Shown: positions 3,343-52,587 of the stretch, piece by piece
Position numbering within the stretch: the first letter of the stretch is position 1
How the letters are laid out: each line of letters starts with the position of its first letter
DNA from: a virus
DNA: 64,000 nt
Reading direction: 5' to 3' (one strand)
Virus record (IMG/VR): IMGVR_UViG_3300042541_001664
Span: 1-64,000 of that record
Made by a program: the position numbers and the translations under genes
The notes under the pieces: model-generated
Database searches by the model: none
Told to the model about the DNA's origin: nothing
The model's input: only the letters and a program-made list of their open reading frames with translations

Positions 3343-3693
3343 TTATCTAAATATTACCCCTTCTATAAACCCAGGTTTAACCATATCTCTTAACTCATCA
3401 TCAGAAAATTTAGCCAAAGATGATTCTTCCAGATACAAATCACCATAAATTTTCAATCCTTTTGGTAATGGTGGTATTGCTTCTATACTTGTCCATCTCA
3501 TATCTAAATCACCATGAATTTTCAAACCATCTGGTAATGATTCTATTGGTCCACCTAATTCCAAATCACCATCAATATATAAATCATCTTCTGTTAAAGG
3601 TTGTTTTGTATAAAATTTCCATATAAATGGAATTGTTTTGTCCTCTGTCTTTTTAAGAAATTCAAATATGTTCTTTAATGTTTTGTTTTTCAT
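3343..3693 (-). CDS. Capped LRR family protein, 2 repeats
   Basis: N-cap MKNKTLKNIFEFLKK...PLTEDDL; LPxGLxIxGDL repeats; C-cap KPGFIEGVIFR. Confidence 0.85.
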   Translation of the reverse strand: MKNKTLKNIFEFLKKTEDKTIPFIWKFYTKQPLTEDDLYIDGDLELGGPIESLPDGLKIHGDLDMRWTSIEAIPPLPKGLKIYGDLYLEESSLAKFSDDELRDMVKPGFIEGVIFR

Positions 3694-3744
3694 TATCTAC
3701 TTATTTTTCCTTTTATAAATCCAGGATAAACCATTTCTTTTAAT
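3693..3744 (-). pseudogene. Orphan LRR C-cap remnant (LKEMVYPGFIKGKISR*)
   Basis: About 51 nt matching the 3' end of the 4210..4800 gene with 2 mismatches; no start codon. Confidence 0.8.
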
Positions 3745-3745
3745 A

Positions 3746-4210
3746 TTATCTAATTATTTTTCCTTTTATAAAACCTGGTAAAATAATTTTTCTTAATTGT
3801 TCATCTGTATATTCTTCTAATCTTGTATCTGCTATACATAAATCTCCATAAACTTCCAACCCTTTAGGTAATGATTCCATTGCCGATTCATCTAAATCCA
3901 ATATACCACCAACTTTCAATCCTTTTGGTAATGATTCCATATTTATTCCTCTTAAATCCAAATGGTTACCAACTTCTAACCCTTCTGGTAGTGAGGTTAT
4001 ACTTGAATATTCTAAATATAAATCCCCCCCAACTTTCAATCCTTCTGGCAATTCTTCTATCTCTGATCCAGTTAAATCCAAATCACCTTTAATATGTAAA
4101 TCATCTTCTGTTAATGGTTCATCATTTATTAATTTCCATACAAATGGTGTTTTACGTCCTTCATTCCCTTCAAGAAAAGTGAATATGTTTTTTATTGTTT
4201 CTTTTTTCAT
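3746..4210 (-). CDS. Capped LRR family protein, 4 repeats
   Basis: Same caps; 20-aa LP(E/K)GL(K/E)VGGxLxLxxx repeats. Confidence 0.9.
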   Translation of the reverse strand: MKKETIKNIFTFLEGNEGRKTPFVWKLINDEPLTEDDLHIKGDLDLTGSEIEELPEGLKVGGDLYLEYSSITSLPEGLEVGNHLDLRGINMESLPKGLKVGGILDLDESAMESLPKGLEVYGDLCIADTRLEEYTDEQLRKIILPGFIKGKIIR

Positions 4211-4800
4211 TATCTACTTATTTTTCCTTTTATAAATCCAGGTTTAACCATTTCTTTTAATTCCTCATCTGAAAATTTTTCTAAAGGAGTATTACGTATA
4301 TATAAAGTAGTCCAAACTTTTAATCCTTTTGGTAATGATGTTAGAAGAGTATTACTCAAATCCAATAAACCCCCAACATATAATCCTTCTGGTAAGGAAT
4401 TTAAATTTTTACAATAACCTAAATATAAACTACCCCTAACGTTTAAATCTTCTGGCAGATATTTTAAATTTTTACAATTTTGTAATTGTAAATCTGAATT
4501 AAATTTCAATCCTTTTGGTAATGTTTTTATATTTGTGTCTTTTAAAATAAAATGACTCCTAACTTTTAAGTCTTTTGGTAGTGATTCTATATCTGTCTGT
4601 GATAAATTTAAATACCCATCAACTTTTAACCCTTCTGGTAATGAGGTTATCTTTCTGTTAGATAAATCCAAATCATCATTAATGATTAAATCATCTTCTG
4701 TTAATGGTTCATTATTTAACCATTTCCATAAAGATGGCATTTTATGTGCTTCTTTTTCTTCAAGAAAATTGAATATGTTCTTTAGTGTTTCTTTTTCCAT
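4210..4800 (-). CDS. Capped LRR family protein, 6 repeats
   Basis: Same caps and repeat; TAATG stop/start overlap. Confidence 0.9.
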   Translation of the reverse strand: MEKETLKNIFNFLEEKEAHKMPSLWKWLNNEPLTEDDLIINDDLDLSNRKITSLPEGLKVDGYLNLSQTDIESLPKDLKVRSHFILKDTNIKTLPKGLKFNSDLQLQNCKNLKYLPEDLNVRGSLYLGYCKNLNSLPEGLYVGGLLDLSNTLLTSLPKGLKVWTTLYIRNTPLEKFSDEELKEMVKPGFIKGKISR

Positions 4801-5384
4801 TATCTAAATATTTTTCCTTTTATAAAACCATCTGGTTTAATCATGTTAAGTAATGCCTCATCTGAAAGTTTTGCTAATGGTGAATCAGCAATATATAAAC
4901 TATCCCAAACTTTTAATCCTTTTGGTAATAATCTTATTGGACAATTATTTAAGTTCAAATTACAACTAACTTCTAAATTTTCTGGTAGTGATTTTATTTT
5001 AGAACCATCTAAAGTAAAATTACAACCAACATCTAAATCTTCTGGCAATTCTTCTATAACTGTATCTACTAAATTTAAAGACCAACCAATTTTTAATCCT
5101 TTTGGTAATGATTTTATTTTTGAATTTTGTAATTCTAAGCCACCACCAATATGCAAATCATCTGGTAAGGATGTTATTTTTGAACGATATAAGTTCAAAT
5201 CACCCCCAACTTTTAATCCCTTTGGTAAGGTTCTTATTTCTGTATCATCTAAATCCAAAGTACCTTTAATGTTTAACTCCTCCTCTGTAAATGGTTCATC
5301 ATTTAGTAATTTCCATTTGAAAGATGTTTTATTTTCTTCATTTTCAAGAAAACGCATTATGTTTTTTAATGTTTCTTTTTCCAT
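4800..5384 (-). CDS. Capped LRR family protein, 6 repeats
   Basis: Same caps and repeat. Confidence 0.9.
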   Translation of the reverse strand: MEKETLKNIMRFLENEENKTSFKWKLLNDEPFTEEELNIKGTLDLDDTEIRTLPKGLKVGGDLNLYRSKITSLPDDLHIGGGLELQNSKIKSLPKGLKIGWSLNLVDTVIEELPEDLDVGCNFTLDGSKIKSLPENLEVSCNLNLNNCPIRLLPKGLKVWDSLYIADSPLAKLSDEALLNMIKPDGFIKGKIFR

Positions 5385-5725
5385 TATCTTTCTATTTTTC
5401 CTTCTATAAATCCAGGTTTAATCATTTCAAATATTTCATTATCAGAAAATTTTGCTAATTTTGTGTTATATATATGCAAATTACCACCAACTTGTAAGCC
5501 TTCTGGTAATGATGTTATTTTTGTATATTGTATATACAAATCGTCACCAACTCTTAAACCTTTTGGTAGTGATTCTATATCTGTCTCTGATAAATTTAAA
5601 TACCCATCAACTTTTAACTCTTCATCTTTTAATGGTTCATCATTTACTAATTTCCATAAAACTGATCTTTTACCTTCATTATCCTCAAGGAAATCAAATA
5701 TATTTTTTAATGTTTCTTTTTTCAT
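5384..5725 (-). CDS. Capped LRR family protein, 2 repeats
   Basis: Same caps and repeat. Confidence 0.9.
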   Translation of the reverse strand: MKKETLKNIFDFLEDNEGKRSVLWKLVNDEPLKDEELKVDGYLNLSETDIESLPKGLRVGDDLYIQYTKITSLPEGLQVGGNLHIYNTKLAKFSDNEIFEMIKPGFIEGKIER

Positions 5726-6138
5726 TCTTCTCTATATATTTTCCCTTTTATAAACCCAGGTTTTATCATTTCTCTTAATTGTTTATCTGTGTATACTTCT
5801 AATGCTGTATCTGTTATATATAAATCTCCATGAACTTTCAATCCTTTTGGTAATAAAGTTATATTTCGTGTTTCCATTAAATATAAATCAATACCAACTT
5901 CCAACCCTTCTGGTAATGATGTTAACTTTGAGCAATATTCTACAAATAGATTACCCCTAACTTTCAATCCTTCTGGTAATGAGGTTGGGTTTATATAATA
6001 AAAATTCAAATCACCTCTAACATCCAAATCTTCTTCTGTAAAAGGTTCTTTATTTAGTAACATCCATAAAAATGGCCTATTTATATTATCTTCTTTTTTA
6101 AGAAAATTGAATATGTTCTTTAATGTTTCTTTTTTCAT
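5722..6138 (-). CDS. Capped LRR family protein, 3 repeats
   Basis: Caps nearly identical to those of 6135..6548. Confidence 0.9.
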   Translation of the reverse strand: MKKETLKNIFNFLKKEDNINRPFLWMLLNKEPFTEEDLDVRGDLNFYYINPTSLPEGLKVRGNLFVEYCSKLTSLPEGLEVGIDLYLMETRNITLLPKGLKVHGDLYITDTALEVYTDKQLREMIKPGFIKGKIYREE

Positions 6139-6548
6139 TCTTCTCTATATATTTTCCCTTTTATAAACCCAGGCTTTATCATTTCTCTTAATTGTTTATC
6201 TGTGTATGCTTCTAATTCTGTATCTGCTATATATAAATCTCCATAAACTTTCAAGCCTTTTGGTAATGATGTTAAACTTGTGCAATTATCTAAAAAGAAA
6301 TTACCATTAACTTCCAACCCTTCTGGTAATGACTTTATTTCAGTACTATATAAATCTAAAAAACCCCCAACTTTTAAACCTTCTGGTAAGGATGTTATTT
6401 CTGAATCATATAGGTTCAAATTCCCCTTAATTACTAATTCATCTTCTGTAAATGGTTCATTATTTAGTAACATCCATAAAAATGGCCTATTTATATTATC
6501 TTCTTTTTTAAGAAAATTGAATATGTTCTTTAATGTTTCTTTTTTCAT
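6135..6548 (-). CDS. Capped LRR family protein, 3 repeats
   Basis: Caps nearly identical to those of 5722..6138. Confidence 0.9.
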   Translation of the reverse strand: MKKETLKNIFNFLKKEDNINRPFLWMLLNNEPFTEDELVIKGNLNLYDSEITSLPEGLKVGGFLDLYSTEIKSLPEGLEVNGNFFLDNCTSLTSLPKGLKVYGDLYIADTELEAYTDKQLREMIKPGFIKGKIYREE

Positions 6549-6985
6549 CCTCTGTATATATATCTTTTTATTAATCCATCTGGTTTAATCATATTTCTTA
6601 ATTCGTTATCTGTGTATTTTTTTAATGGTGAATTATAAATGAATAAAATACCATCAACTTTCAATCCTTCTGGTAGTGATGTTATTTTTGTGGATGATAA
6701 TTTCAATTCATAACCAACTTTCAATCCTTTTGGTAATGATGTTATTTCGCTATTTCTTAAATCAAGCAAACCCCTAACTTCCAATCCTTCTGGTAAGGAT
6801 TTTATAGTTGAACCTTTTAAATCCAAATCACCATCAAACACTAACTCTTCTTTTGTAAATGGTATTCCACTTTCTACTTTTTCTATAAAGTTAATTTTCT
6901 TTATATAGTTAGAAAATTTATAAGATTTTTTATTTTCTTCTTTTTCAAGAAAATTGAATATGTTCTTTAATGTTTCTTTTTCCAT
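6545..6985 (-). CDS. Capped LRR family protein, 3 repeats, with a divergent extended N-cap
   Basis: MEKETLKNIFNFLEKEENKK...; LPEGLEV and LPKGLKV repeats. Confidence 0.9.
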   Translation of the reverse strand: MEKETLKNIFNFLEKEENKKSYKFSNYIKKINFIEKVESGIPFTKEELVFDGDLDLKGSTIKSLPEGLEVRGLLDLRNSEITSLPKGLKVGYELKLSSTKITSLPEGLKVDGILFIYNSPLKKYTDNELRNMIKPDGLIKRYIYRG

Positions 6986-9350: not shown

Positions 9351-9351
9351 C

Positions 9352-9873: not shown

Positions 9874-10779
9874 TCATTTTAAGTAAGAAAAAATATGTGC
9901 AATAACATCAACAGTCCAGGCATTGCCAATCATCTTTTTTGCTTGTGATACTGATACCAAATTTGTATACCCCTCTGGTAGTGTTTGAAGCCTCTCATAT
10001 TCCAATAATGAATAATATCTAAATGGTAGTTTATCTTTAAATGCGTTTGGATGTCTACCAATTGGCAAAGGGGTTAAAACATTATCCTTATCAACTGTTG
10101 TTAAGCAATTGCTTTTATTTGTGTTTGTTGCTCTAACTTCCAGACATTGTGTGATAGGAATATCTTTATTATAATCACTCCTCTTACCAGCCTCATTAAG
10201 CCTTCTACCAATGATGGTGGCCTTATTTAACCTTCTACCCCTAATTGCGGCTGGATTGGCATTAGAATCAATTTCTAGCACATCATTGAGGGTTATTCCC
10301 CTATCCTCAGGAATACCAACGCCAGGAATATTTGTCCAATATAATCTAACCCTATTCTGAGCTGATACTAATGAACTATTAATTTTGATTGGGGCAACTC
10401 CTAGATATTCTGTAATAATATCCTCATATTCTTTTTTCATCACAACATTTTCCAATAAGAAATATTTTGGTTTGCACTCATTAATCAATCTAACAAATTC
10501 AAAAAACAATTTACTTCTTGGATCGTCAAAATTAAGTTGCTTACCTGCAAATGAAAATCCTTGGCAAGGGCTACCGCCAATTAACAAATCAATCTTTGAT
10601 GCAATAAATTCAATTTTTGTCACATCACCTAATTGAACTGTGTTGGGGTAATGATGCTGTGTAACTTTTATGGCATTCTTATCTATTTCTGATGCAAAAT
10701 AATTGTTGTATGGAATATTAGCCTTATTCAAGGCAATTTGCCCACAACTTATTCCATCAAACAAACTCAATACATTCAT
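9874..10779 (-). CDS. DNA (cytosine-5)-methyltransferase
   Basis: Motif I LSLFDGISCG, IV GGSPCQGFS, VI ENV, VIII QNRVR, X GNAW. Confidence 0.95.
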   Translation of the reverse strand: MNVLSLFDGISCGQIALNKANIPYNNYFASEIDKNAIKVTQHHYPNTVQLGDVTKIEFIASKIDLLIGGSPCQGFSFAGKQLNFDDPRSKLFFEFVRLINECKPKYFLLENVVMKKEYEDIITEYLGVAPIKINSSLVSAQNRVRLYWTNIPGVGIPEDRGITLNDVLEIDSNANPAAIRGRRLNKATIIGRRLNEAGKRSDYNKDIPITQCLEVRATNTNKSNCLTTVDKDNVLTPLPIGRHPNAFKDKLPFRYYSLLEYERLQTLPEGYTNLVSVSQAKKMIGNAWTVDVIAHIFSYLK

Positions 10780-10835
10780 ATTTCAATATTTTTTAATATA
10801 TGAGCAATAACATCAACTGCCCACGCATTACCTAT
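10776..10835 (-). pseudogene. Orphan C5-MTase motif X remnant (IGNAWAVDVIAHILKNIEI*)
   Basis: Reading frame begins at the HNH stop codon and ends with the ATGA overlap typical of the array. Confidence 0.85.
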
Positions 10836-11425
10836 TATGTATTTAAATTTAATGCTTGTTTAAATTTAATACAATCATTCCAATAACAACCATTACAAGT
10901 CCCTTCATATTTATCAACACCTTCAATATATGAAATAGGAAAACCTAAAGTTTTAGCATCAAATCTTATACCTGTATTAATACATCGAGTACAATCTGTT
11001 CTTTTGTTTAAATTTGCTTGACCACACAAAGGCTGAAAATCTTCTACTTTTTGAGTCTCTGTATTTAAAACATTTTCATCATCATACCTACCATTTTTAT
11101 GGTCAATAACAATTCGATTGTTAGTTGTATCATTAAACCCTGTATGCACACAAGGTTTATTCGATAATTGATTTCTAATTTCTTTTTTTATAGGTCTATT
11201 GGATTTTTGAATTTCAACAAATCCATTAAACCTCCAATGTGTTATATTATTAATTATTTTTTTTTCTAATTTTAGATGGTTCAAACCCCTATTCCTCATC
11301 CAATGATTACCATTTCTTGGATATAAATTAGCAAAATCATCAACAAGTTCATTTTTTGAAACCCATCTTGATATTCCGTATTTATCTGGTTTGAATAATA
11401 AGAGAACCAAATTTGTATTACTCAT
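10835..11425 (-). CDS. HNH endonuclease, IceA/NlaIII-like
   Basis: KPDKYGISRWV, IDHKNGR, DFQPLC..AN..KR..C..C, GCYW.D match remembered NlaIII/IceA1 motifs. Confidence 0.7.
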   Translation of the reverse strand: MSNTNLVLLLFKPDKYGISRWVSKNELVDDFANLYPRNGNHWMRNRGLNHLKLEKKIINNITHWRFNGFVEIQKSNRPIKKEIRNQLSNKPCVHTGFNDTTNNRIVIDHKNGRYDDENVLNTETQKVEDFQPLCGQANLNKRTDCTRCINTGIRFDAKTLGFPISYIEGVDKYEGTCNGCYWNDCIKFKQALNLNT

Positions 11426-11485
11426 AATTTTGTTTTTTAATTAAGGTAAAATTAATGTTTTTTTTTAATTAAAGTAAATTTATTA

Positions 11486-12316
11486 CTAAATATTTTTGAA
11501 AATGTGGAAAATAACATCAACTGTCCAGCCATCACCAATACAATCATACGCCTCATCATAAGATAGTATTTTTGTATATCCAACAGGTAGGGTTTGTAAT
11601 TTTTCTATTTCAGTTTGCGATAAATATCTATACACCCCATCTCTGTATAGGTAATTTTCATTCCATTTCTTATGACCTAATGCTGTGAGGCATCCACTCT
11701 TAGGATATGGATTCACTTTAGTATATCCATTTTTTATTGATTTTTTACCGCTTTCAGAATTAAGCCATTTTACTCTACACTCATCAGCCAACACCCCGGA
11801 ATAATCAAAAATATCATTTGTAGTTATTCCCTTATCTAGGGGTTGTTTAATGTCTGGGATATTTGTCCAGTAATATCTTGGTCTATTTTGTGCTGAAACT
11901 AATTTACTATTAATTGATATTGGTTTTATTCCTAAAGTTTCAGTAATAGTATTGGTGGCCTCCTTGTTACCATGAGTATTTTCAAGTAGGTAATATTTTG
12001 GTTTAACTTCATCAAGTAATCTAATATATTCCCAGAACAATCTACTTTCTGAATGTTCAAGTCCTTCTTGATTTTTATTTAGCCTTGAGATACCCTTACA
12101 AGGGCTACCACCAATAAATAAATCAATCTTTGGTAAATCACTACCTTTTAAATTTAAAATATCCCCCAATTGAATTGTGTTGGGGTAATTATCTAAAGTG
12201 CATTTTATTGCGTGAGGTTTAATTTCAGATGCATAATAATTGTCATATGATATATTTGCTCTATTTAAAGCAATTTGCCCACAACTGATTCCATCAAACA
12301 AACTTAATACATTCAT
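11486..12316 (-). CDS. DNA (cytosine-5)-methyltransferase
   Basis: LSLFDG, GGSPCKG, ENT, QNRPR, GDGW. Confidence 0.92.
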   Translation of the reverse strand: MNVLSLFDGISCGQIALNRANISYDNYYASEIKPHAIKCTLDNYPNTIQLGDILNLKGSDLPKIDLFIGGSPCKGISRLNKNQEGLEHSESRLFWEYIRLLDEVKPKYYLLENTHGNKEATNTITETLGIKPISINSKLVSAQNRPRYYWTNIPDIKQPLDKGITTNDIFDYSGVLADECRVKWLNSESGKKSIKNGYTKVNPYPKSGCLTALGHKKWNENYLYRDGVYRYLSQTEIEKLQTLPVGYTKILSYDEAYDCIGDGWTVDVIFHIFKNI

Positions 12317-13383
12317 ATTTCAATATTTTTAAATATGTGAGCAATAACATCAACAGTCCAACCATTCCCCAGCATTTTATACCTTTGAGTATTTGAAACA
12401 CTTTTTGTATATCCAATAGGTACAGTTTGAAGTTTCTCGAAATGGTTCGGATTTAAATAAAACATTTCTTTACCATCAGTAATCGTTTTTCGCTGTCCTA
12501 CACCTGTTAGTGTTGTAAGTGTTGGATGCTTTCCATCAATATGATAAATTCGTTTTGCCATATCAAATGAATTGTTTTTAATTTCAAATTCTGTAACCGC
12601 CTTATCATATTTACAATCTTCAATACTCAAACATTTTTTTAGTTTATCCCAATATTCAACATCAGGTATTGAAAAACTGCCATCCATTCTGAACCAATGT
12701 TCTACCATAGTTTTTGGGGCATCACAAAAATTTGCTATTTCGTTTATCGTTTTTGTTTTATGGTTTCGCAAAAATAAAGCAAGTTCTTTTTTATCAATGT
12801 AATTTTTTCTTACACTAACTTTAAAATCAGATTTGCTCATCAGTATTTTATTTTTACGTTCATTAACAATCGGTAGTCCTAAAACATCTGCAATAACTTC
12901 ATTTGAGTTTGGTAATTCATTTTGAAAAGGAATATTTGTCCAATACAATCGTTTTCTCTGCTGTGCTGAAAATAATGAACTGCAAATCTCAATAGGTTTT
13001 ACACCCAACTCATTTGATATTATATCTTGCCACTCTTGTTTCATTTTAACATTCTCCAAAAGAAAATATTTTGGTTTTGTTTCCTTTAATACTCTAACAT
13101 ATTCCCAAAATAATTTACTCTTCCCATCAAATCCATTTCTTAAACCTGCGTTGCTGAAACTTTGACAAGGGCTACCCCCAATTAGCAAATCAATCTTTGG
13201 TAGATCATCTCCATTTATTTGGGTTACATCCCCCAATTGTATTGTTTCTGGATAATTGTGTTGCGTAACATTTATAGCATTCTTATCAATTTCAGCAGCA
13301 TAATACTTATCATAAGGAATATTTGCTCGATTTAAAGCAATCTGTCCGCAACTCATACCATCAAACAAACTTAATACATTCAT
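12313..13383 (-). CDS. DNA (cytosine-5)-methyltransferase with an HTH-like insert in the variable region
   Basis: Canonical motifs plus KTINEIANFCDAPKTMVEHWFRMDGSFSIP. Confidence 0.92.
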   Translation of the reverse strand: MNVLSLFDGMSCGQIALNRANIPYDKYYAAEIDKNAINVTQHNYPETIQLGDVTQINGDDLPKIDLLIGGSPCQSFSNAGLRNGFDGKSKLFWEYVRVLKETKPKYFLLENVKMKQEWQDIISNELGVKPIEICSSLFSAQQRKRLYWTNIPFQNELPNSNEVIADVLGLPIVNERKNKILMSKSDFKVSVRKNYIDKKELALFLRNHKTKTINEIANFCDAPKTMVEHWFRMDGSFSIPDVEYWDKLKKCLSIEDCKYDKAVTEFEIKNNSFDMAKRIYHIDGKHPTLTTLTGVGQRKTITDGKEMFYLNPNHFEKLQTVPIGYTKSVSNTQRYKMLGNGWTVDVIAHIFKNIEI

Positions 13384-14570: not shown

Positions 14571-15382
14571 AATTTAATATTTTTTAATATATGGGCAATA
14601 ACATCAACTGTCCACCCGTTCCCCAACATTTTATACCTTTGAGTGTTTGAAACACTTTTTGTATATCCAATAGGCATAGTTTGTATTCTTTCACATTCTT
14701 CTGGCGTAAGCATTCTATGGGCAGTTCTATCATCATCTAAAAAACTTTCCCTAATACTAATTGCTGGTCTACCACTTCCTCTTATACCTTTGTAATAGGT
14801 TGCAGTTAATGTGTTAAATATATTTTTTTGTTTAAAAACTCTATCTACCCCACAAGATGTTGGAAACCCTTCTCCCTCTATAAAATCAGAAATATTGTAA
14901 TGCTTTTGTTCAGGCTGCACCACATTTGGTATATTAGTCCAATATAGTCTTCTTCGTGCTTGGGGTACAAATTTAGCACTTGAAATTTCAATTGGTTTAA
15001 CATTTAACGCTTCAGTAATTATATCTTCCCACTCTTTTTTCATAATTACATTTTCCAATAAAAAATAAGTTGGATTAACCTCTTTTAATACTCTAACATA
15101 ATCCCAGAATAATCCACTTTTCCCATCAAAACCTGTATTATCACCAACTCTACTAAAACTTTGACAAGGACTACCGCCAATCACCAAATCAATCTTTGGT
15201 AATGTACTAACATCTAGTTTTGTTATATCCCCTAACTGAATTGTTTTTGGATAATTATGTTGGGCTACATCCATAGCATATTTATCAATCTCAGATGCAA
15301 AATAATTATCATATTGCACCCCTACTCTATTTAGAGCAATCTGTCCACAAGACATCCCATCAAATAAACTTAATACATTCAT
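14567..15382 (-). CDS. DNA (cytosine-5)-methyltransferase
   Basis: LSLFDG, GGSPCQSFS, ENV, QARRR, TLTATYYKG, GNGW. Confidence 0.93.
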   Translation of the reverse strand: MNVLSLFDGMSCGQIALNRVGVQYDNYFASEIDKYAMDVAQHNYPKTIQLGDITKLDVSTLPKIDLVIGGSPCQSFSRVGDNTGFDGKSGLFWDYVRVLKEVNPTYFLLENVIMKKEWEDIITEALNVKPIEISSAKFVPQARRRLYWTNIPNVVQPEQKHYNISDFIEGEGFPTSCGVDRVFKQKNIFNTLTATYYKGIRGSGRPAISIRESFLDDDRTAHRMLTPEECERIQTMPIGYTKSVSNTQRYKMLGNGWTVDVIAHILKNIKL

Positions 15383-15390
15383 AAAAATTA

Positions 15391-19419: not shown

Positions 19420-19448
19420 AATAAAATTTTTTAAATTGTTAATTATTG

Positions 19449-19522
19449 TTAGGATGATAGGATTTGAACCTACAACATCTTGCTCCCAAAGCAAGTACTC
19501 TACCGGGTTGAGCTACATCCTA
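19449..19522 (-). tRNA. tRNA-Pro(TGG), CCA not encoded
   Basis: Acceptor TAGGATG/CATCCTA; anticodon arm CTTGC-TTTGGGA-GCAAG; T arm GTAGG-TTCAAAT-CCTAT. Confidence 0.92.
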
Positions 19523-21114: not shown

Positions 21115-21666
21115 TTAATCAAATCCTTCGTCATATTCATCATTTATTATTTCACCTTTTATAAATCCAGGCTTAATCATTTCTATTATTTCATCATCAG
21201 ATTTGGAGGCTAAAACTGTTGAGTTTATATGTAAATAACCCCCAACCTCTAATCCTTTTGGTAGAGAATGTAAACTAGATCCATCTAAATGTAAATCGCC
21301 ACCAACTTTTAATCCTTTTGGTAATGAAAAAATATATTGACAACTTGCTAAAATTAAATCACCCCCAACTTCTAACCCTTCTGGTAATGACCTTATATCT
21401 GACTCCTCTAATACTAAGTGACTATTAACTATTAAACCTTTTGGGAGTGTTTCTATTTCTGAATATGATAAATCCAATTCACCATCAACTCTTAATCCTT
21501 CTGGTAATGATTTTATTTCTGATTGTGTTAAATACAAATCACCTTTAATATGTAAATCATCTTCTGTTAATGGTATATTATTTTCCCATTTCCACAAAAA
21601 CGGTGTTTTTATTTTTTCATTCTTTTCAAGAAAAGAAAATATATTCTTTAATGTTTCTTTTTCCAT
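21115..21666 (-). CDS. Capped LRR family protein, 5 repeats (singleton)
   Basis: MEKETLKNIF cap; KPGFIKGEII plus acidic tail. Confidence 0.9.
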   Translation of the reverse strand: MEKETLKNIFSFLEKNEKIKTPFLWKWENNIPLTEDDLHIKGDLYLTQSEIKSLPEGLRVDGELDLSYSEIETLPKGLIVNSHLVLEESDIRSLPEGLEVGGDLILASCQYIFSLPKGLKVGGDLHLDGSSLHSLPKGLEVGGYLHINSTVLASKSDDEIIEMIKPGFIKGEIINDEYDEGFD

Positions 21667-26405: not shown

Positions 26406-26885
26406 ATGGAAAAACAAACACTAAAAAATATACTTAATTTTCTTGAAGATAATGAAGAAAAAAAACATAAATACAAAAATACATTTATTTGGAAAGATGT
26501 GTTTAATGAGTCATTAACAAAAGAAGATTTAGTTTTTAAAGGTGATTTGTATTTAGAGAATTTAGATATATCAGGATTACCAGAAGGATTACAAGTTGAT
26601 GGAGATTTGAATTTATACTCTTCCCCCATACAAGAATTACCAAAGGGCTTGAAAATTGGGGGAGATTTGGATTTATATGGTTCAGATATAGATAAATTAC
26701 CAGAAGGGTTAAAAGTTGGGCGTGATTTGAACATACAATATTCATTTATTTCATCATTACCAAAAGGTTTAAAAGTATATGGTGATTTGAATATTGATTC
26801 TTCAAAATTATCAAGATTTTCTGATGAAGAATTATCTAAAATGATTATACCTGGATTTATATTAGGAAAAATACATAGACAGTAA
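26406..26885 (+). CDS. Capped LRR family protein, 4 repeats (singleton)
   Basis: MEKQTLKNIL cap; PGFILGKIHRQ C-cap. Confidence 0.9.
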   Translation: MEKQTLKNILNFLEDNEEKKHKYKNTFIWKDVFNESLTKEDLVFKGDLYLENLDISGLPEGLQVDGDLNLYSSPIQELPKGLKIGGDLDLYGSDIDKLPEGLKVGRDLNIQYSFISSLPKGLKVYGDLNIDSSKLSRFSDEELSKMIIPGFILGKIHRQ

Positions 26886-42784: not shown

Positions 42785-43816
42785 ATGAAAAAATTAATGC
42801 AAATTGATGAAAACAAATTGATTGGGATTATAAAGAGTATGTTAGCGGAACAATCTGTTGATCCTATTCGTGCAACTATAAATAACACTCGTCCTAATAT
42901 TAATACTTTTGATATCCCAACTCAAAAAGTACAAGGAATTGATCGTATGGGGGACGATGATATTGATTACTTGGCACAACAACAAGCAGCACAACAACAA
43001 GCAGCACAAAAGCAAGCAGCACAACCACAGCGAAAAACTAAGGCGTGTGCTGGTTATACGGAAAAAGCAACAGGTCCTTATAAATTATGTGATAGCGGTA
43101 AAGCCATTATAGCATTACAAACAAAATTAGGATTTAAAGGTAACGCTATAGATGGTAAACTTGGTGTATTAACTATGAGGGCGGCTCAAAAGCAAGGCCT
43201 TGTACAAAACAATACAATTCTTGATACTAAAATAAATGATTTTAAAAGTAATGTGGTAACTACAAATACCAAGCAGAGTAATAGTAGTTCTGGGTATATA
43301 ACAATAAATAAAAAGTATTTGGGTTTACCAGGTGCAATATTTCAAGCATATAAAAAGGCAGAGTGGATTAATTTAACAAATCCAGATGGTAGAACTACAG
43401 TTACAACTAATTGTTCTAATTTAAAGACTAATATGTATTATAAATATATTCCTACAGAACAAAAAGGTTGGGTAACCCCAACAACTACAAAGAATTTAAG
43501 TGGATTACTTAATTATTATTTTTGTCAAACAAAAACAAATGCAATAAATGTCACTAACGAAGTTATAACTGAACTATCTAAAGAACGTTCAAAATATTTT
43601 TTTGGTTCAACTTTCACTGCTATTAAAAAAAGGGATGGTGGTATTCATATAAAAAATGAAAAAGGTGGAGTAAACCTTGCTACAACTTGTGGTGAACTAA
43701 ATACTAATATATTTAGAAGGAATTATAGAATGCCAAATTCTCAAGTTGGCACTACTATTGAATTACCTAAATTAAGCGAAAAAATTAAACCATTATTTTG
43801 TAGTACAAATAAATAA
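42785..43816 (+). CDS. Protein with LxE leader and a peptidoglycan-binding-like domain
   Basis: MKKLMQIDENKLIGIIKSMLAEQ; IIALQTKLG...IDGKLGVLTMRA; ATATTTAT at 42763-42770. Confidence 0.7.
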   Translation: MKKLMQIDENKLIGIIKSMLAEQSVDPIRATINNTRPNINTFDIPTQKVQGIDRMGDDDIDYLAQQQAAQQQAAQKQAAQPQRKTKACAGYTEKATGPYKLCDSGKAIIALQTKLGFKGNAIDGKLGVLTMRAAQKQGLVQNNTILDTKINDFKSNVVTTNTKQSNSSSGYITINKKYLGLPGAIFQAYKKAEWINLTNPDGRTTVTTNCSNLKTNMYYKYIPTEQKGWVTPTTTKNLSGLLNYYFCQTKTNAINVTNEVITELSKERSKYFFGSTFTAIKKRDGGIHIKNEKGGVNLATTCGELNTNIFRRNYRMPNSQVGTTIELPKLSEKIKPLFCSTNK

Positions 43817-48853: not shown

Positions 48854-49453
48854 TTAAACAATATTCTTAGGTTTAAATATTTCACAAAATTTAGGAGCAT
48901 ATTGCTTATATTCGTTATATTTTATATAAATGCTTTTGTCTTCATTTAAAAATATATGTTTATTTTCATCTATTATTTTTTTAACGAAAAAAACATAATT
49001 ACTATCCTCGGCATATAATCTACCTAAATAATTGAAATATTCATCTCTTGTTTTTTTCTTTTTCTTGAAAATGAAATCTTGGAATAATTTATAATCTTCA
49101 ACACTATTAGTCCAGCAATTATATACAGAATATCCTTTATTGGAATACAAAGCAACGGTTGGTCTTCTTTCTGGTAATCTCATACCAAATAAATTATTGT
49201 TTTCCAAATAAATTGTGCTTGACATATATCCACTTTCTAGCATAGCTTGGGCAAATACGATATCTGGATATTCAATATCTTGGGATAAGATTTCAAAATA
49301 TACAAGTTTCTTTTTAGAAATTTCATCAGAAAATAAACTTATTAGTTTAATCTTTTCTGAATCAATTTCATTTTTTATGAAATTTGTTGTTAATAATACA
49401 ATAGTATTATCAAGAATTGAAATTAGAATTAAGGAAATTATTATTTTGTTCAT
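48854..49453 (-). CDS. Glucosaminidase (GH73-like) with an N-terminal hydrophobic anchor
   Basis: AQAMLESG, NNLFGM, YAEDSNY. Confidence 0.82.
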   Translation of the reverse strand: MNKIIISLILISILDNTIVLLTTNFIKNEIDSEKIKLISLFSDEISKKKLVYFEILSQDIEYPDIVFAQAMLESGYMSSTIYLENNNLFGMRLPERRPTVALYSNKGYSVYNCWTNSVEDYKLFQDFIFKKKKKTRDEYFNYLGRLYAEDSNYVFFVKKIIDENKHIFLNEDKSIYIKYNEYKQYAPKFCEIFKPKNIV

Positions 49454-49517
49454 AATTATTGTTTAAAAAAAAATAAACTAAGATTCAGTTGTCTAATTCT
49501 TAGTTTATTTTGTTTAG

Positions 49518-49936
49518 TGGAGACGCAGGGAATTGAACCCTGGTCTTGCTCGTAATTTAGTAAAAAGACTACATGCTTATTCCATAGATTCTGTATGGAC
49601 ACATAAGACAGTTCATATTTTTCCATTTGACCTGACAACTGTGGGGGGTTCACTTCCGCTATTTGCATAGACTTACAGGTAGCACCCCAAACCAAAACCT
49701 TTGACACAATAAGTAGTATCACACTATGAGGCTTCTGTTCCTGGGTTATATGCCCACCGACCCGGGGTTGTTATGACTACTAAGCCGCAACAACAGCATC
49801 TTCACGTACTAGACCTAAAGTTGCTAAAGTTTCTAAAGTGTTGCCAGTTAAAGGCTTGAACCAGTTTTTAATGAGGTTAATTCAGCCCCAACATGCCTTC
49901 TTACCCAATCCACGCCAATCGATCCCTTTCGTCCCC
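49518..49936 (-). ncRNA. ssrA: tmRNA; predicted tag (A)GNTLETLATLGLVREDAVVAA* at 49845-49780
   Basis: 5' GGGGACG pairs with 3' CGTCTCC-A including G3.U70; T arm CAGGG-TTCAATT-CCCTG; TAACT-GGC resume context; tag ends AA with tandem TAG stops. Confidence 0.92.
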
Positions 49937-49943
49937 TTGTCTT

Positions 49944-50003
49944 ATAAATATCATCATTTCTGTTGATGACACAAATATAGATCCCTTTTTTTGATTTTCC
50001 AAA
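49944..50003 (-). promoter_or_regulatory. Dual promoter for tmRNA
   Basis: TTTG(50003-50000)-N20-TATATTTG(49979-49972), plus ATATTTAT at 49951-49944. Confidence 0.7.
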
Positions 50004-50096
50004 TGGTTTTTTCATTTTCTTTTAAAAGAATTTGATTTGCTGTTTTGTGGATGGAATAATAATATTTAGTTATATTTATATATTAAAATATGAATT

Positions 50097-50687
50097 ATGG
50101 AAAAAGAAACATTAAAAAAGATATTCAATTTTCTTGAAAAGAATGATAACAGAAATGTACCATTTATTTGGAAATTATTAAATAATGAACCATTCACAGA
50201 AGAAGAATTAAATATTAAAGGTGATTTAAATTTATCAGAAACACCCATAGAGTCATTACCTAATGGTTTGGTAGTTAGTGGTGATTTAATTTTATCCGAA
50301 TGTGAAAGTTTACGTTCTCTACCAAAAGGATTGAAAGTTGGAGGTAGTTTGGATTTATCATATTCATTACATTTAGACTCATTACCTAATGGTTTAGTAG
50401 TTGGTGGTGATTTAATTTTATCTGGTTGTGAAAGTTTAGATTCCCTACCAGAAGGATTGAAAGTTGGTGGTGAATTGCATTTAGATAATAGTGATGTTTA
50501 TGAATTACCAAAAGGATTAGAGATTGGTGGGGATTTAATTGTTACTAATTCAGCATTAGAGGAATATAGTGATAAAAAGTTAAGAAAAATGATTCAACCT
50601 GGGTTTATAAAAGGTAAGATATTTTATAATAATGAGGATGCTGATAGTGATGATGATGATTATGATGAAGAAGATGATGATGATTGA
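50097..50687 (+). CDS. Capped LRR family protein, 5 repeats, poly-Asp tail
   Basis: Family caps; ATATTTAT at 50072-50079. Confidence 0.9.
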   Translation: MEKETLKKIFNFLEKNDNRNVPFIWKLLNNEPFTEEELNIKGDLNLSETPIESLPNGLVVSGDLILSECESLRSLPKGLKVGGSLDLSYSLHLDSLPNGLVVGGDLILSGCESLDSLPEGLKVGGELHLDNSDVYELPKGLEIGGDLIVTNSALEEYSDKKLRKMIQPGFIKGKIFYNNEDADSDDDDYDEEDDDD

Positions 50688-50704
50688 TTTAAATTAAATA
50701 TATA

Positions 50705-51238
50705 ATGAAAAAAGAAACACTAAAAAAGATATTTAAATTCCTTGAAGAAAATGGTGAGCATAATGCACCACTTATGTGGAAATTACAAAACAATATACCA
50801 ATAACAGAAGATGATTTGATTGTTAATGGTGATTTGAATTTAACAAAAACAGATATTGAATCATTACCAGATGGATTGAAAGTTGAGAATAATTTAAGTT
50901 TATATGGTTGTAAAAATATACAATCATTACCAGAAGGATTAGAAGTTGGGGGGCATTTGGATTTGGGATATTCAAATATAACATCATTACCAAAAGGGTT
51001 GAAAGTTGGTGGGAGTTTATCTTTATTTGATTGTGCAAATATAACTTCACTACCAGAAGGCTTGAAGGTTGGGCGTAATTTAGATTTAGGTTTTACAAAA
51101 ATAATCTCATTACCAAGAGGGTTAAAAGTTGAGGGCTTTATAGATTTGAATGGTACAAAATTAACAGAATACACAGATGATGAATTAAGAAAAATGATTA
51201 AACCTGGATATATAAAAGGAAGAATAATTAAAGTTTAG
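50705..51238 (+). CDS. Capped LRR family protein, 5 repeats
   Basis: Family caps and repeat. Confidence 0.9.
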   Translation: MKKETLKKIFKFLEENGEHNAPLMWKLQNNIPITEDDLIVNGDLNLTKTDIESLPDGLKVENNLSLYGCKNIQSLPEGLEVGGHLDLGYSNITSLPKGLKVGGSLSLFDCANITSLPEGLKVGRNLDLGFTKIISLPRGLKVEGFIDLNGTKLTEYTDDELRKMIKPGYIKGRIIKV

Positions 51239-51241
51239 TTA

Positions 51242-51592
51242 ATGGAAAAAGAAACACTAAAAAAAATACTTGATTTTCTTAAACAGAATGAGAATAGAAA
51301 TATTCCAATTGCTTGGAAATTAATAAATAATGAACCATTAACAGAAAAGGAATTAACTATTGATCGTGATTTGGATTTAAAAGGTTCAACTATTAAATCC
51401 TTACCAGAATATTTAAATATTAAAGATGATTTGGATTTATCTCACACAAAAATAACCTCATTACCAAAAGGATTAAAAGTTGGTGAAAATTTATATATTA
51501 AAAACAGCCCATTAACTAAATATTCAGATTATGAAATAATAAAAATGATTGCGCCTGGATATATTCAAGGTAAAATAGATAGAAGTTGGTAA
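51242..51592 (+). CDS. Capped LRR family protein, 2 repeats
   Basis: Family caps and repeat. Confidence 0.9.
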   Translation: MEKETLKKILDFLKQNENRNIPIAWKLINNEPLTEKELTIDRDLDLKGSTIKSLPEYLNIKDDLDLSHTKITSLPKGLKVGENLYIKNSPLTKYSDYEIIKMIAPGYIQGKIDRSW

Positions 51593-51595
51593 ATT

Positions 51596-52090
51596 ATGGA
51601 AAAAGAAACACTAAAAAAGATATTCAATTTTCTTGAAGAAAATGAAAGACATCAAACTCCATTTTTGTGGAAATGGGTAAATAATATACCATTAACAGAA
51701 AAAGATTTAAATATTGAAGGTGAATTGGATTTAACAAACACAGATATTAAATCATTACCAGATGGATTGAAAGTTTCTGGGGATTTGAATTTAACTGAAA
51801 CAGATATGGAATCATTACCAGAAAGATTGGAAGTTGCTGGTAATTTATATTTGGATCACAGTTTTATAAAATCATTACCAAAGGACTTGAAGGTTGGTGG
51901 GGATTTGAGTATTGAAGCCACTTACATAAAATCATTACCAAGAGGCTTACAAGTTGGTGGTGATTTATATTTGAATGATAGTTATTTGTATAAGACCACA
52001 TCCCTTAATGAATTAAGGGATATTGTAAAAAAAATGGTTGAACCTGGTTTTATTAAAGGTAATGTAATTTTTGATGACTATGATGATTGA
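51596..52090 (+). CDS. Capped LRR family protein, 4 repeats
   Basis: Family caps and repeat; acidic end DDYDD. Confidence 0.9.
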   Translation: MEKETLKKIFNFLEENERHQTPFLWKWVNNIPLTEKDLNIEGELDLTNTDIKSLPDGLKVSGDLNLTETDMESLPERLEVAGNLYLDHSFIKSLPKDLKVGGDLSIEATYIKSLPRGLQVGGDLYLNDSYLYKTTSLNELRDIVKKMVEPGFIKGNVIFDDYDD

Positions 52091-52107
52091 TTTAAATTAA
52101 ATATATA

Positions 52108-52587
52108 ATGGAAAAAGAAACACTAAAAAAGATATTTGATTTTCTTGAAGAAAATGATAATAAAAGAAAACCACTTATGTGGAAATTAAAAAACAATATA
52201 CCAATAACAGAAAAAGATGATTTGATTGTTAAAGGTAGTTTGGATTTATCTAGTTCAAACATAACCTCACTACCAAAAGGTTTGGAAGTTAAAGGTGGTT
52301 TAAGTTTATATGAATCAGAAATAATCTCCTTACCAGAAGGCTTGAAGGTTGGGGGTGATTTAGATTTAAGAAATTCATATATAGAAAGTTTACCAGAAGG
52401 ATTGGAAGTTGGGGATGAATTGGATTTAGCATATACATACATAACCTCACTACCAAAAGGCTTGAAAGTTGGGAGTATTTTGATTATAATTGAGAGTGAA
52501 TTATTAAAATATTCAGATAAAGAAATAAGAAAAATGATTGAACCTGGGTATATTAAAGGGAAAATAATTAGAGAATATTATAGATAA
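52108..52587 (+). CDS. Capped LRR family protein, 4 repeats
   Basis: Family caps and repeat. Confidence 0.9.
   Translation: MEKETLKKIFDFLEENDNKRKPLMWKLKNNIPITEKDDLIVKGSLDLSSSNITSLPKGLEVKGGLSLYESEIISLPEGLKVGGDLDLRNSYIESLPEGLEVGDELDLAYTYITSLPKGLKVGSILIIIESELLKYSDKEIRKMIEPGYIKGKIIREYYR

What the first reader, a model, noticed from the sequence alone, without database searches (positions are those of the whole stretch)
3343..52587. Phage-encoded library of 15 capped variable-LRR proteins (VLR-like architecture)
Seen: 15 paralogues, 8 at 3343-6985, 5 at 50097-52587 and singletons at 21115 and 26406. They share an N-cap (M(E/K)KETLK(N/K)IFxFL..., usually followed by W...P(L/F)TExxL) and a C-cap (L.x(Y/F)(S/T)DxxLxxMIKPG(F/Y)IKGKIxR). 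Between the caps lie 2-6 repeats of 20-21 aa (58 by my count), consensus IxSLP(E/K)GL(K/E)VGGxLxLxxx. The framework residues are nearly fixed, while the positions in xxLxLxxx vary widely. Established: in LRR solenoids such as lamprey VLRs and internalins, those positions form the concave ligand-binding sheet. Inference: a constant-cap, variable-module repertoire of small binders, reshuffled by recombination between conserved framework codons. Likely targets are host defence proteins, or competing phages. There is no signal peptide or catalytic domain. I do not know of a described phage system like this.
Basis: partly seen in the sequence, partly recalled or inferred. Interest (0 to 1): 0.9.

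Follow-up and report, generated by a model that had tools for sequence, protein, structure and literature searches.

The report
Phage library of small LRR binders
A large T4-like lake phage carries dozens of small leucine-rich-repeat proteins with fixed ends and variable middles, which related phages gain, lose and recombine; they look like an inherited set of binding proteins, but their targets are unknown.

Summary
The window holds 15 intact paralogues with 58 repeats. The 73-kb virus record holds 19. A 90%-complete 270-kb relative holds 41, or 8.1% of its genome.

Variability sits at x10, x12, x14, x15, x17 and x19 of the repeat. Between close orthologues dN/dS is 0.55-0.67 there, 0.10 at framework sites and 0.13 in neighbouring genes. 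That is elevated but below 1.

Related phages show whole-gene gain and loss, whole-repeat copy-number changes and cap/core mosaics.

The phage has a T4-type head module. One array sits directly after the prohead protease gene.

Targets and function were not tested. No paper describing the family was found. This scan has noted the same kind of family before, in at least 38 other genomes.

The parts
3343..3693 (-). LRR paralogue, 116 aa, 2 repeats (array 1, last gene)
3694..3745 (-). Start-less remnant of a C-cap. It nearly repeats the 3' end of 4210-4800 (2 mismatches in about 58 nt, including the TAATG stop/start overlap). It is a recombination scar bracketing gene 3746-4210.
3746..4210 (-). 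LRR paralogue, 154 aa, 4 repeats
4210..4800 (-). LRR paralogue, 196 aa, 6 repeats. This is the protein that was modelled (pLDDT 93.7). It has a 90% aa orthologue in L001.
4800..5384 (-). LRR paralogue, 194 aa, 6 repeats; 99% aa orthologue in L001
5384..5725 (-). LRR paralogue, 113 aa, 2 repeats; 96% aa orthologue in L001
5722..6138 (-). LRR paralogue, 138 aa, 3 repeats. It is the twin of 6135-6548: caps 96-97% nt identical, core 74%.
6135..6548 (-). LRR paralogue, 137 aa, 3 repeats; twin of 5722-6138
6545..6985 (-). LRR paralogue, 146 aa, 3 repeats, with a longer N-cap insert (first gene of array 1)
21115..21666 (-). Singleton LRR paralogue, 183 aa, 5 repeats, acidic tail. The same slot holds 2 genes in L009, L010 and L013, and 7 in the 270-kb relative.
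26406..26885 (+). Singleton LRR cassette, 159 aa, 4 repeats. It is precisely absent from L037, L018 and L020. It is present in L002 and L013, which also hold about 1.07 kb of extra DNA at this site.
50097..50687 (+). LRR paralogue, 196 aa, 5 repeats, poly-acidic tail, pI 4.2 (array 2, first gene)
50705..51238 (+). LRR paralogue, 177 aa, 5 repeats
51242..51592 (+). LRR paralogue, 116 aa, 2 repeats; 100% aa orthologue in L033 and L045
51596..52090 (+). LRR paralogue, 164 aa, 4 repeats, acidic tail
52108..52587 (+). LRR paralogue, 159 aa, 4 repeats; 99% aa orthologue in L033 and L045

Best explanation
This is a phage-specific multigene family of small, non-secreted, capped LRR solenoids. Each protein has an N-cap of about 45 aa, 2-18 repeats of 20-21 aa with the pattern LPxGLxVxGxLxLxx(S/T/C)xIxS, and a C-cap of about 30 aa.

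Shown:
- the fold class;
- the restriction of both caps to this small phage family;
- the concentration of variation on the canonical LRR strand (x10, x12, x14) and the following loop (x15, x17, x19);
- a family size of about 40 genes per genome;
- rapid turnover between closely related phages.

Turnover takes the form of whole-cassette gain and loss, unequal crossing-over that changes repeat number, and mosaic exchange at the conserved cap and framework sequence.

Inferred: each paralogue binds a different protein partner through its variable face. The set would then be an inherited, recombination-diversified repertoire of binders used during infection, most likely against host proteins (defence or takeover targets). 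The constant caps mainly close the solenoid and also supply the homology that drives the shuffling.

Whether the proteins act after synthesis in the cell or are delivered with the DNA is open (see rival 1).
For: Fold:
- A profile of the family hits FlrP (PDB 8z5u) at E 1.2e-34, then designed LRRs, VLR-B, SlrP, SspH1 and IpaH.
- The AlphaFold model has pLDDT 93.7 and pTM 0.85, with two short strands per coil.

Family is phage-specific and uncharacterised:
- 2131 clusters at 90% identity reach E<=1e-3, and every name that a source gives is 'hypothetical protein'.
- Of the 7 Atlas clusters shown, 6 are 85-100% viral and 1 is 88% bacterial; the top three are 94-97% viral.
- The viral scan returned 50 loci, which by my count of the table lie on 39 viral records.
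- No relative was confirmed among 600 pattern matches in species-representative genomes.
- The N-cap profile finds only 145 representatives among 1.84 billion proteins. All are 30-264 aa. 85 of the 91 hits of at least 100 aa carry LRR units.
- None of 120 longer repeat homologues carries either cap.

Variable face:
- In the 20-aa units entropy is 2.8-3.3 at x10, 12, 14, 15, 17 and 19, about 2.0-2.3 at x3, 6, 8 and 9, and <=1.1 at most framework positions.
- The commonest residues at the variable positions are D, N, Y, S and G.
- pI ranges from 4.2 to 9.4 among paralogues.

Evolution:
- Pooled dN/dS over 31 orthologue pairs is 0.10 at framework sites, 0.23 at convex x, 0.55 at concave x, 0.67 at loop x, 0.76 in the N-cap and 0.40 in the C-cap.
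- Neighbouring genes give 0.13 (35 ORFs, two of them antisense shadows of LRR genes; 73 pairs).

Turnover:
- Only 4 of the 8 array-1 genes have an orthologue of at least 90% aa in the closest relative, whose flanks are 92-96% identical.
- Cap/core mosaics are seen in L034, L023, L012, L045 and L002.
- Orthologues of the long gene have 14, 15, 16 or 18 units and differ only in the first units.
- The long gene is absent from 6 loci.
- A precise cassette indel lies at 26399-26889, and a C-cap scar at 3694-3745.

Other uses of the repeat: the same repeat type serves as the substrate-binding domain of NEL E3-ligase effectors, and is fused to PcfJ-like, DnaJ and other domains.
Against: - No target, binding event or phenotype was observed. 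The binder role is inferred from the fold and the pattern of variation.
- dN/dS is below 1 in every site class, so diversifying selection is not demonstrated. Relaxed constraint on surface residues would give a similar ranking.
- The 31 pairs are not independent, and recombination confounds dN/dS.
- x positions are more variable than framework positions in any LRR family, so the entropy pattern alone is weak evidence.
- The closest solved relative, FlrP, is a structural spacer in a flagellar motor, not an immune-type binder.
- Transcription is not shown.
- The relatives are short-read metagenome assemblies, in which repeated caps could create chimeras. Against that, several arrangements recur in separate records: L023 and L012; L026, L028 and L029; L033, L045, L046 and L049. 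Also, exact tracts shared between paralogues are at most 41 nt apart from the twins.
Confidence: 0.55

Rival explanations
1. Capsid-delivered version. The LRR proteins would be prohead-core (internal or ejection) proteins, like the T4 internal proteins. They would be loaded into the prohead, possibly trimmed by the T4-type protease, and injected with the DNA to meet host defences before any phage gene is expressed. The N-cap, or part of it, would act as the loading signal.
For: - The phage has a T4-type head module: Peptidase_S77 protease at record 67033-67734 (81.9 bits over the cut-off; phrog_207), a gp23-like capsid protein, a portal and a large terminase.
- LRR array 3 starts 2 nt after the protease gene. 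It lies between that gene and a 569-aa acidic ORF followed by the capsid gene.
- The same slot holds 3 LRR genes in the 270-kb relative and 2-5 LRR genes in the other relatives whose loci cover it.
- Many non-LRR proteins of this phage start with short amphipathic leaders ending in (I/L)xE. From memory, that is the T4 protease motif.
- The LRR N-cap starts with a 14-residue helix ending in FLE.
Against: - The LRR leader is not portable. 0 of 107 non-family N-termini of the record score at least 5 bits with a leader profile, and the N-cap profile finds essentially only this family.
- The Glu of FLE is Lys in 5 of 19 paralogues, and the Glu of P(L/F/I)TE is Lys or Asp in 5 of 19 (read). Neither is a conserved cleavage site.
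- The N-cap is modelled as a folded cap on the first coil.
- The other arrays and both singletons lie outside the head module, beside DNA methyltransferases, a tmRNA gene, a subtilase and so on.
- Packaging cannot be tested with these tools.
Confidence: 0.2
2. Virion-surface adhesins. The constant caps would dock the proteins onto the capsid or tail, and the variable faces would bind host-surface or environmental ligands, widening adsorption.
For: - LRR or beta-helix domains hang on virion fibre proteins of phage Goslar (bioRxiv 10.64898/2026.04.21.720040, passages read).
- One array lies in the head gene cluster.
- Fast turnover is typical of receptor-binding genes.
Against: - No anchor domain and no fibre or baseplate neighbours were identified.
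- About 40 different decorations per virion is hard to picture.
- Many members have only 2-3 repeats.
- The longer fibre-like homologues lack the caps.
Confidence: 0.08
3. There is no binder repertoire. The family would have a common structural or housekeeping role (a spacer or assembly factor, as FlrP is). Alternatively it is a largely neutral, self-amplifying repeat family, whose copy number and mosaics merely reflect frequent homologous recombination in a T4-like phage.
For: - FlrP, the closest relative, is a structural spacer.
- dN/dS is below 1 everywhere.
- Recombination at repeated sequence needs no selection.
- The same mechanisms are ordinary for tandem families.
Against: - 8.1% of a 270-kb genome is kept as intact ORFs (41 of 41 family ORFs open).
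- Framework sites are under purifying selection as strong as in the neighbouring genes (0.10 against 0.13).
- Charge and surface residues differ widely between paralogues, which fits many partners better than one.
Confidence: 0.1

Closest known systems
FlrP, the periplasmic LRR protein of the Vibrio polar flagellar motor (PDB 8z5u; bioRxiv 10.64898/2025.12.04.692373, passages read)
   Different: FlrP has a Sec signal peptide, is a single bacterial gene, is positively charged and acts as a spacer on the flagellar rod. The phage proteins have charged N-termini and their own N- and C-caps, range from pI 4.2 to 9.4, and come as about 40 paralogues per genome.
LRR substrate-recognition domains of NEL E3-ligase type III effectors (IpaH, SspH1/2, SlrP)
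   Same: They share the short bacterial-type LRR with an LP motif. Profile and fold matches were found. Longer homologues of the same repeat are fused to NEL domains (PF14496). The LRR is the target-binding part.
   Different: The phage proteins have no NEL or any other effector domain, and they have different caps. They are not secreted effectors.
Hyperplastic internal-protein (IP) genes of T4-type phages with a shared capsid-targeting sequence
   Same: The host phage has a T4-type head. There is a constant N-terminus on otherwise diverse small proteins, a fast-changing gene content, and one array in the prohead-core gene cluster. T4 IPs are described as diverse anti-restriction proteins (PMC3012670).
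   Different: The LRR N-cap is a folded cap confined to this family, not a short portable leader. It has no invariant cleavage Glu. The variable part is one fold, not unrelated folds. Packaging is unknown.
Lamprey and hagfish variable lymphocyte receptors
   Same: Both have constant caps and a variable number of LRR modules with diversity on the strand face. VLR-B is a profile match at E 2.7e-10.
   Different: VLRs are assembled somatically from cassettes into one incomplete germline gene and have cysteine-rich LRRNT/LRRCT caps (recalled). Here every gene is complete in the genome, the caps have no cysteines and diversification happens on an evolutionary time scale.
Expanded repeat-protein families of giant viruses and poxviruses (LRR, ankyrin/PRANC, FNIP, DUF285), and tandem LRR families that evolve by unequal crossing-over (plant NLR genes)
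   Same: These are large inherited repertoires of repeat proteins in a virus, with tandem arrays, copy-number change and mosaic recombination. Giant-virus LRR proteins appear as weak fold matches.
   Different: Those viruses infect eukaryotes, and their proteins are larger and often carry adaptor domains such as F-box or PRANC (recalled). Here the host is a bacterium, the proteins are 113-387 aa, and they have only caps.

Membership tests
Leucine-rich repeat (LRR) superfamily | Tandem units of 20-30 residues carrying LxxLxLxx(N/C/S/T)xL | tested here: met
   There are 58 units of 20-21 aa in the 15 window proteins. The L11-x-L13-x-x-(S/T/C)16-x-(I/L)18 pattern is nearly fixed.
Leucine-rich repeat (LRR) superfamily | Sequence-profile similarity to solved LRR proteins | tested here: met
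   100 PDB sequences match at E<=1. The best is 8z5u at 1.2e-34, followed by designed LRRs, VLR-B, SlrP and SspH1.
Leucine-rich repeat (LRR) superfamily | Solenoid fold with a parallel beta-strand per coil | tested here: met
Pfam LRR models (LRR_1, LRR_4) | Score at or above Pfam's gathering cut-off | tested here: not met
   The best hit is LRR_4 at 20.4 bits against a cut-off of 27. 6 of the 10 proteins scanned have no LRR hit at all. The repeat is a divergent short type that the Pfam models miss.
FlrP-type flagellar LRR protein | Sec signal peptide and periplasmic location on the flagellar rod | tested here: not met
   The N-termini read M(E/K)KETLKNIF.FLE with no hydrophobic stretch. This was read from the sequence and no signal-peptide predictor was run. 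A rod association is not testable and is implausible for a phage protein.
Lamprey VLR | Cysteine-rich LRRNT/LRRCT caps; somatic assembly of one incomplete germline gene from flanking cassettes | tested here: not met
   No cysteine occurs in either cap. All 19 genes are complete ORFs with a start, caps and a stop. The defining features of VLRs are recalled, not taken from a call.
T4-type internal proteins (capsid-targeting sequence) | The phage has a T4-type prohead protease and capsid | tested here: met
   PF03420 scores 81.9 bits and PF07068 36.2 bits in the record. In the relative PF03420 scores 78.7 bits and PF07068 scores 214.7 bits. phrog_207 and phrog_138 also match.
T4-type internal proteins (capsid-targeting sequence) | A short N-terminal leader shared by otherwise unrelated proteins and ending in an invariant (L/I)xE cleavage site | tested here: not met
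   The leader profile hits 0 of 107 non-family N-termini. The N-cap profile hits only this family, apart from 6 of the 91 hits of at least 100 aa. E14 is K in 5 of 19 paralogues. The motif itself is recalled.
T4-type internal proteins (capsid-targeting sequence) | Present inside the mature head and ejected | not testable with these tools
   This needs virion proteomics.
NEL (IpaH/SspH) E3-ligase effectors | C-terminal NEL domain (PF14496) | tested here: not met
   There is no PF14496 hit in the 10 proteins scanned. Only the LRR part matches SlrP, XopL and SspH2, far below their cut-offs.
Diversity-generating retroelement target | A reverse transcriptase in the genome | tested here: not met
   PF00078 has 0 matches in the 73-kb record and in the 90%-complete 270-kb relative. 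The control rang in 3 of 14 genomes. The 73-kb record is only 23% complete.

The most novel reading that the evidence does not exclude
A T4-like jumbo phage would keep an inherited combinatorial repertoire of about 40 mini-LRR 'antibody-like' binders that it re-cuts by recombination at constant caps. It would load at least part of this repertoire into the capsid through the prohead core, so that a cocktail of binders with many specificities enters the cell with the DNA and neutralises pre-existing host defence proteins. In effect this would be a phage counterpart of an innate receptor repertoire, working in the opposite direction.
Probability: 0.2. Interest if true: 0.9.

Novelty: new variant of a known kind. 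Interest (0 to 1): 0.62.

Why it matters
If the paralogues bind different host proteins, this would be one of the largest inherited binder repertoires known in a bacterial virus. It takes up about 8% of a 270-kb genome and is widespread in lake phages. It would also add a new class of candidate anti-defence or host-takeover proteins.

The scaffold is small (113-200 aa), free of cysteines and predicted with high confidence, and nature has already varied it at defined positions. That makes it attractive as an engineerable binder scaffold, alongside repebodies.

The comparative data also give a clean natural example of how a phage diversifies a gene family by recombination at conserved caps. The hypotheses can be tested directly by virion proteomics and by expressing paralogues against defence-system libraries.

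Tried and rejected
Database searches that gave nothing useful:
- PHROGs gave no hit at E<0.01 for 10 paralogues.
- PADLOC gave none for 5.
- NCBIfam gave only far-sub-cutoff LRR stretches of SlrP, XopL, XopAC and SspH2.
- tblastn against 50,697 phage records found only one hypothetical protein of Edwardsiella phage Edno5. It shares 40% identity in the repeats only and lies in the early-left region between cI and exo/recT.
- megablast of 20 kb of the window against the same records found nothing.
- The scan of species-representative genomes with the N-cap pattern confirmed none of 600 candidates. It was a single pattern, so this is weak evidence of absence.
I used the search for related loci and the genome search for context instead.

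Ideas dropped:
- The Zn-metalloprotease at 22990-24795 as carrier of a T9SS sorting domain, and hence a Bacteroidota host: NCBIfam gave no hit. The host remains unknown.
- T4-type late promoters in front of the arrays: TATAAATA is enriched in the window (43 found, 22 expected), but none sits convincingly upstream of arrays 1 or 2.
- DNA mimicry as a common function: pI ranges from 4.2 to 9.4.
- A DGR: no reverse transcriptase.

Expression: RNA-library contigs of three runs cover the tmRNA gene. Only one 151-nt contig, of depth 2.1, lies wholly inside an LRR gene (52244-52394, with 3 other letters). A few shorter pieces, 18-70 nt long, also fall on LRR genes. DNA carry-over cannot be excluded, so this is no evidence of transcription. 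The uncovered parts prove nothing.

The many joints inside array 2 in DNA run X6 were obtained at 90% likeness with short sides. They may come from paralogues of other phages, so I do not use them.

Complex prediction was not used, because I claim no specific pair. The second structure job, the third homologous-protein search and the second Atlas call were also not used.

Papers: Matsushima et al. 2021 (Arch Virol, LRRs in dsDNA viruses) is not held and may already list short phage LRRs. I did not ask for any supplementary files.

One search looked for the code 8Z5U, and searched for the Matsushima survey. None of them turned up a description of the family.

Full report
OBSERVATION. Anchoring on the LP dipeptide gives 58 repeats, distributed 2,4,6,6,2,3,3,3,5,4,5,5,2,4,4 and spaced 20 or 21 residues apart. 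This is after dropping two spurious hits out of 60. The count is understated. The window is bases 1-64000 of a 73,456-base virus record that CheckV rates 23% complete. Four more paralogues lie at 67736-70605, one of them 387 aa with 15 repeats. That makes 19 genes in 73 kb.

WHAT THE PROTEINS ARE. Pfam sees only sub-threshold LRR matches (LRR_4 at 20.4 bits against a cut-off of 27). PHROGs, PADLOC and NCBIfam give nothing usable.

A profile of the family against all PDB sequences gives a clear answer. The best match is chain 8z5u_0 at E 1.2e-34, followed by designed LRRs, hagfish VLR-B (2.7e-10) and the LRR domains of SlrP, SspH1 and IpaH. Chain 8z5u_0 is FlrP, a recently identified 21.5-kDa periplasmic LRR protein that sits on the rod of the Vibrio polar flagellar motor (bioRxiv 10.64898/2025.12.04.692373, passages read).

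So these are short bacterial-type LRR solenoids. The unit is L1 P2 x G4 L5 x V7 x G9 x L11 x L13 x x (S/T/C)16 x I18 x S20. The 21-residue variant has C16 and one extra residue.

VARIATION. The analysis covered 65 internal units of the 19 paralogues.
- Framework positions have entropy <=1.1.
- In the 20-aa units x3, x6, x8 and x9 are restricted (H 2.0-2.3; mostly E/K or G).
- In the 20-aa units x10, x12, x14, x15 and x17 have H 3.0-3.3 and x19 has H 2.8. The commonest residues at these positions are D, N, Y, S and G. The 21-aa units show the same ranking with mostly lower values.

L11-x12 is a strand in the model. By the canonical LRR register it corresponds to the ligand-binding strand (established knowledge of LRR proteins). 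I could not map residues onto coordinates, because the tools do not return them. Paralogues range from pI 4.2 to 9.4 and from net charge -25 to +11.

SELECTION. I found 31 same-length orthologue pairs (at least 80% aa identity) between the record and 50 related viral loci, and pooled Nei-Gojobori counts by site class.
- Framework: 0.10
- Convex x: 0.23
- Concave x: 0.55
- Loop x: 0.67
- N-cap: 0.76
- C-cap: 0.40

The neighbouring non-family genes give 0.13 (35 ORFs, 73 pairs; two of the ORFs are antisense shadows of LRR genes). The variable sites therefore evolve 4-6 times faster than the framework and the genome baseline, but dN/dS stays below 1. The pairs are not independent and recombination confounds the measure. 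Diversifying selection is not demonstrated.

TURNOVER AND RECOMBINATION. This is the strongest result.
- The viral collection returned 50 related loci, on 39 records by my count of the table. An HMM of the family finds 323 ORFs in them and in the record, redundancy included, with arrays of up to 12-14 genes.
- In the closest relative (L001 and L013, one record, flanks 92-96% identical) only 4 of the 8 array-1 genes have an orthologue of at least 90% aa. That relative has three other small genes and a 521-aa LRR fusion instead.
- Array 2 has 5 genes here and 7 in L045. Only 2 of the 5 are at least 99% identical.
- The singleton at 26406-26885 is precisely absent from L037, L018 and L020. The junction lies right after the upstream stop codon and leaves the downstream gene's leader intact. 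L002 and L013 carry this gene plus about 1.07 kb more.
- The 387-aa gene is absent from six loci. Its orthologues have 14, 15, 16 or 18 units, and the differences are confined to duplicated first units.
- Mosaics occur at the cap/core borders. In L023 and L012 the 68849 gene is split into [its N-cap + foreign core + C-cap] and [foreign N-cap + its core and C-cap].
- Inside the window, the twins 5722-6138 and 6135-6548 have caps 96-97% identical and a core 74% identical, with sharp borders near nt 107 and 297.
- A start-less C-cap remnant at 3694-3745 repeats the end of 4210-4800 with two mismatches.
- Exact tracts of 28-41 nt shared between other paralogues lie in the conserved framework and caps. 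They are enough homology for recombination in a T4-like phage (inference).

Caveat: the relatives are short-read assemblies. However, several arrangements recur in separate records.

SCALE AND DISTRIBUTION. A 270,075-base relative rated 90% complete carries 41 family ORFs in 9 loci. They add up to 21,906 nt, or 8.1% of the genome. The protein collection holds 2131 clusters at 90% identity with E<=1e-3, and every name that a source gives is 'hypothetical protein'. Of the 7 Atlas clusters shown, 6 are 85-100% viral and one is 88% bacterial.

A profile of the N-cap alone finds 145 representatives among 1.84 billion proteins. All are short, and nearly all have the cap at the very N-terminus. 85 of the 91 hits of at least 100 aa carry LRR units.

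Longer proteins with the same repeat exist. They are fused to NEL E3-ligase, PcfJ-like, DnaJ, Thg1 and GNAT domains, but none of 120 has either cap. The caps thus define a phage-specific small family. The stretch 49400-53500 is held by 14 lake-water DNA runs at 74-95% of its sampled words.

GENOMIC SETTING. The phage has a T4-type head module. In order, it holds a large terminase (62122-63885), a portal (63895-65769), two small ORFs, a Peptidase_S77 prohead protease (67033-67734), LRR array 3 (67736-70605), a 569-aa acidic ORF and a gp23-like capsid gene. The same slot after the protease holds 3 LRR genes in the 270-kb relative and 2-5 in other relatives.

In T4, the internal proteins are a diverse set of anti-restriction proteins that share only a capsid-targeting sequence (PMC3012670, passages read). 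This makes a capsid-delivered role attractive. The tests I could run do not favour the N-cap as a portable leader:
- 0 of 107 other N-termini in the record match it.
- It is confined to this family.
- Its candidate cleavage glutamates are not invariant.

No reverse transcriptase is present, so a DGR is excluded for the 90%-complete relative.

MECHANISM. Best reading (0.55): an inherited repertoire of small cytoplasmic LRR binders. Each would have its own variable face, and the set is diversified by duplication, unequal crossing-over, cassette gain and loss, and cap/framework recombination. It would act on host proteins during infection. The architecture, the turnover and the purifying selection on the framework are shown. 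The binding, and the nature of the targets, are inferred.

Rivals:
- capsid-delivered internal proteins (0.2);
- virion-surface adhesins (0.08);
- a common structural role or a largely neutral self-amplifying family (0.1).

COMPARISON AND NOVELTY. The fold and repeat type are known (FlrP, IpaH-type LRRs). Tandem LRR families that evolve by unequal crossing-over are also known, as are expanded repeat-protein families in giant viruses. The closest conceptual parallel in phages is the hyperplastic internal-protein loci of T4-type phages. The VLR analogy holds for design only.

I found no paper that describes this phage family. Single members carry an automatic 'Leucine-rich repeat' name, and one possibly relevant survey was not readable. 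This scan has noted the same kind of family on other DNA before: 46 notes in at least 38 genomes, several with the same closest relatives. The overlapping window of this record was also noted. Those are unchecked AI notes and I do not count them as support. I rate the finding a new variant of a known kind.

Noticed in passing
window 49515-49936 (-): The phage encodes a tmRNA (Rfam RF00023, 82.1 bits; ARAGORN also calls it), directly upstream of LRR array 2. Contigs from three metatranscriptome runs cover 49549-49923 with 4-7 other letters.
   Followed up: partly
window 62122-63885 and record 63895-73456 (L066): A T4-type head module in T4-like order: large terminase, portal, two small ORFs, Peptidase_S77 prohead protease, then the LRR array, a 569-aa very acidic ORF (scaffold-like, no family hit) and a gp23-like major capsid gene cut by the contig end.
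   Followed up: yes
window, N-termini of ORFs at 177-1016(-), 2556-3239(-), 16381-16980(-), 27117-27614(-), 29395-30141(+), 32194-34116(+), 34157-35020(-), 36114-36569(+), 42785-43816(+): Many unrelated proteins begin with a 13-22-residue amphipathic leader ending in (I/L)xE, for example ...VIAE, ...IISE, ...IIYE, ...MLAE, ...IINE. With a T4-type prohead protease in the genome, these look like cleavable propeptides of head-internal proteins. No enrichment statistics were computed.
   Followed up: partly
window 9874-16014 (-): Five ORFs in a row start with MN(V/I)LSLFDG(I/M)SCGQIALN and a sixth starts with MNVLELFAG. This is a tandem set of paralogous (cytosine-methyltransferase-like) genes, interrupted by a different ORF at 10835-11425. 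I saw it only in N-terminus listings and in DNA cross-matches.
   Followed up: no
window 53444-55474 (-), 52612-53409 (+), 27700-28749 (+), 22990-24795 (+): The phage encodes several protein-quality-control or protease genes: a ClpB/ClpA-like double AAA+ unfoldase (AAA_2, AAA_lid_9, ClpB_D2-small), an M42/M20-like peptidase right after array 2, an S8 subtilase, and an M12B-type metalloprotease with a signal-peptide-like N-terminus.
   Followed up: partly
window 20485-21102 (-): An ORF next to the singleton LRR gene matches phrog_3704 ('ferredoxin', moron/AMG class, E 7.5e-40). In L013 this stretch (window 19858-21111) is missing and a second LRR gene is present.
   Followed up: no
L001 12276-13841 (+): The closest relative has a 521-aa fusion. 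It consists of a leader of the MNLNENINRIK type, an unknown domain of about 270 aa, 5 LRR units with the family C-cap, a Thr/Pro-rich linker and a tail of about 80 aa. It sits where the window has 2556-3693. It is the only capped LRR that I saw fused to other domains.
   Followed up: partly
window 19448-19601 (-): tRNA-Pro(TGG) and tRNA-Met(CAT) genes lie side by side (ARAGORN and Rfam).
   Followed up: no
proteins P0324, P0325, P0388, P0406, P0272: A few database proteins carry the family N-cap followed by non-LRR sequence, or by a different LRR type. They could be recombinants, frameshifts, or a hint that the N-cap can work as a separate module.
   Followed up: no
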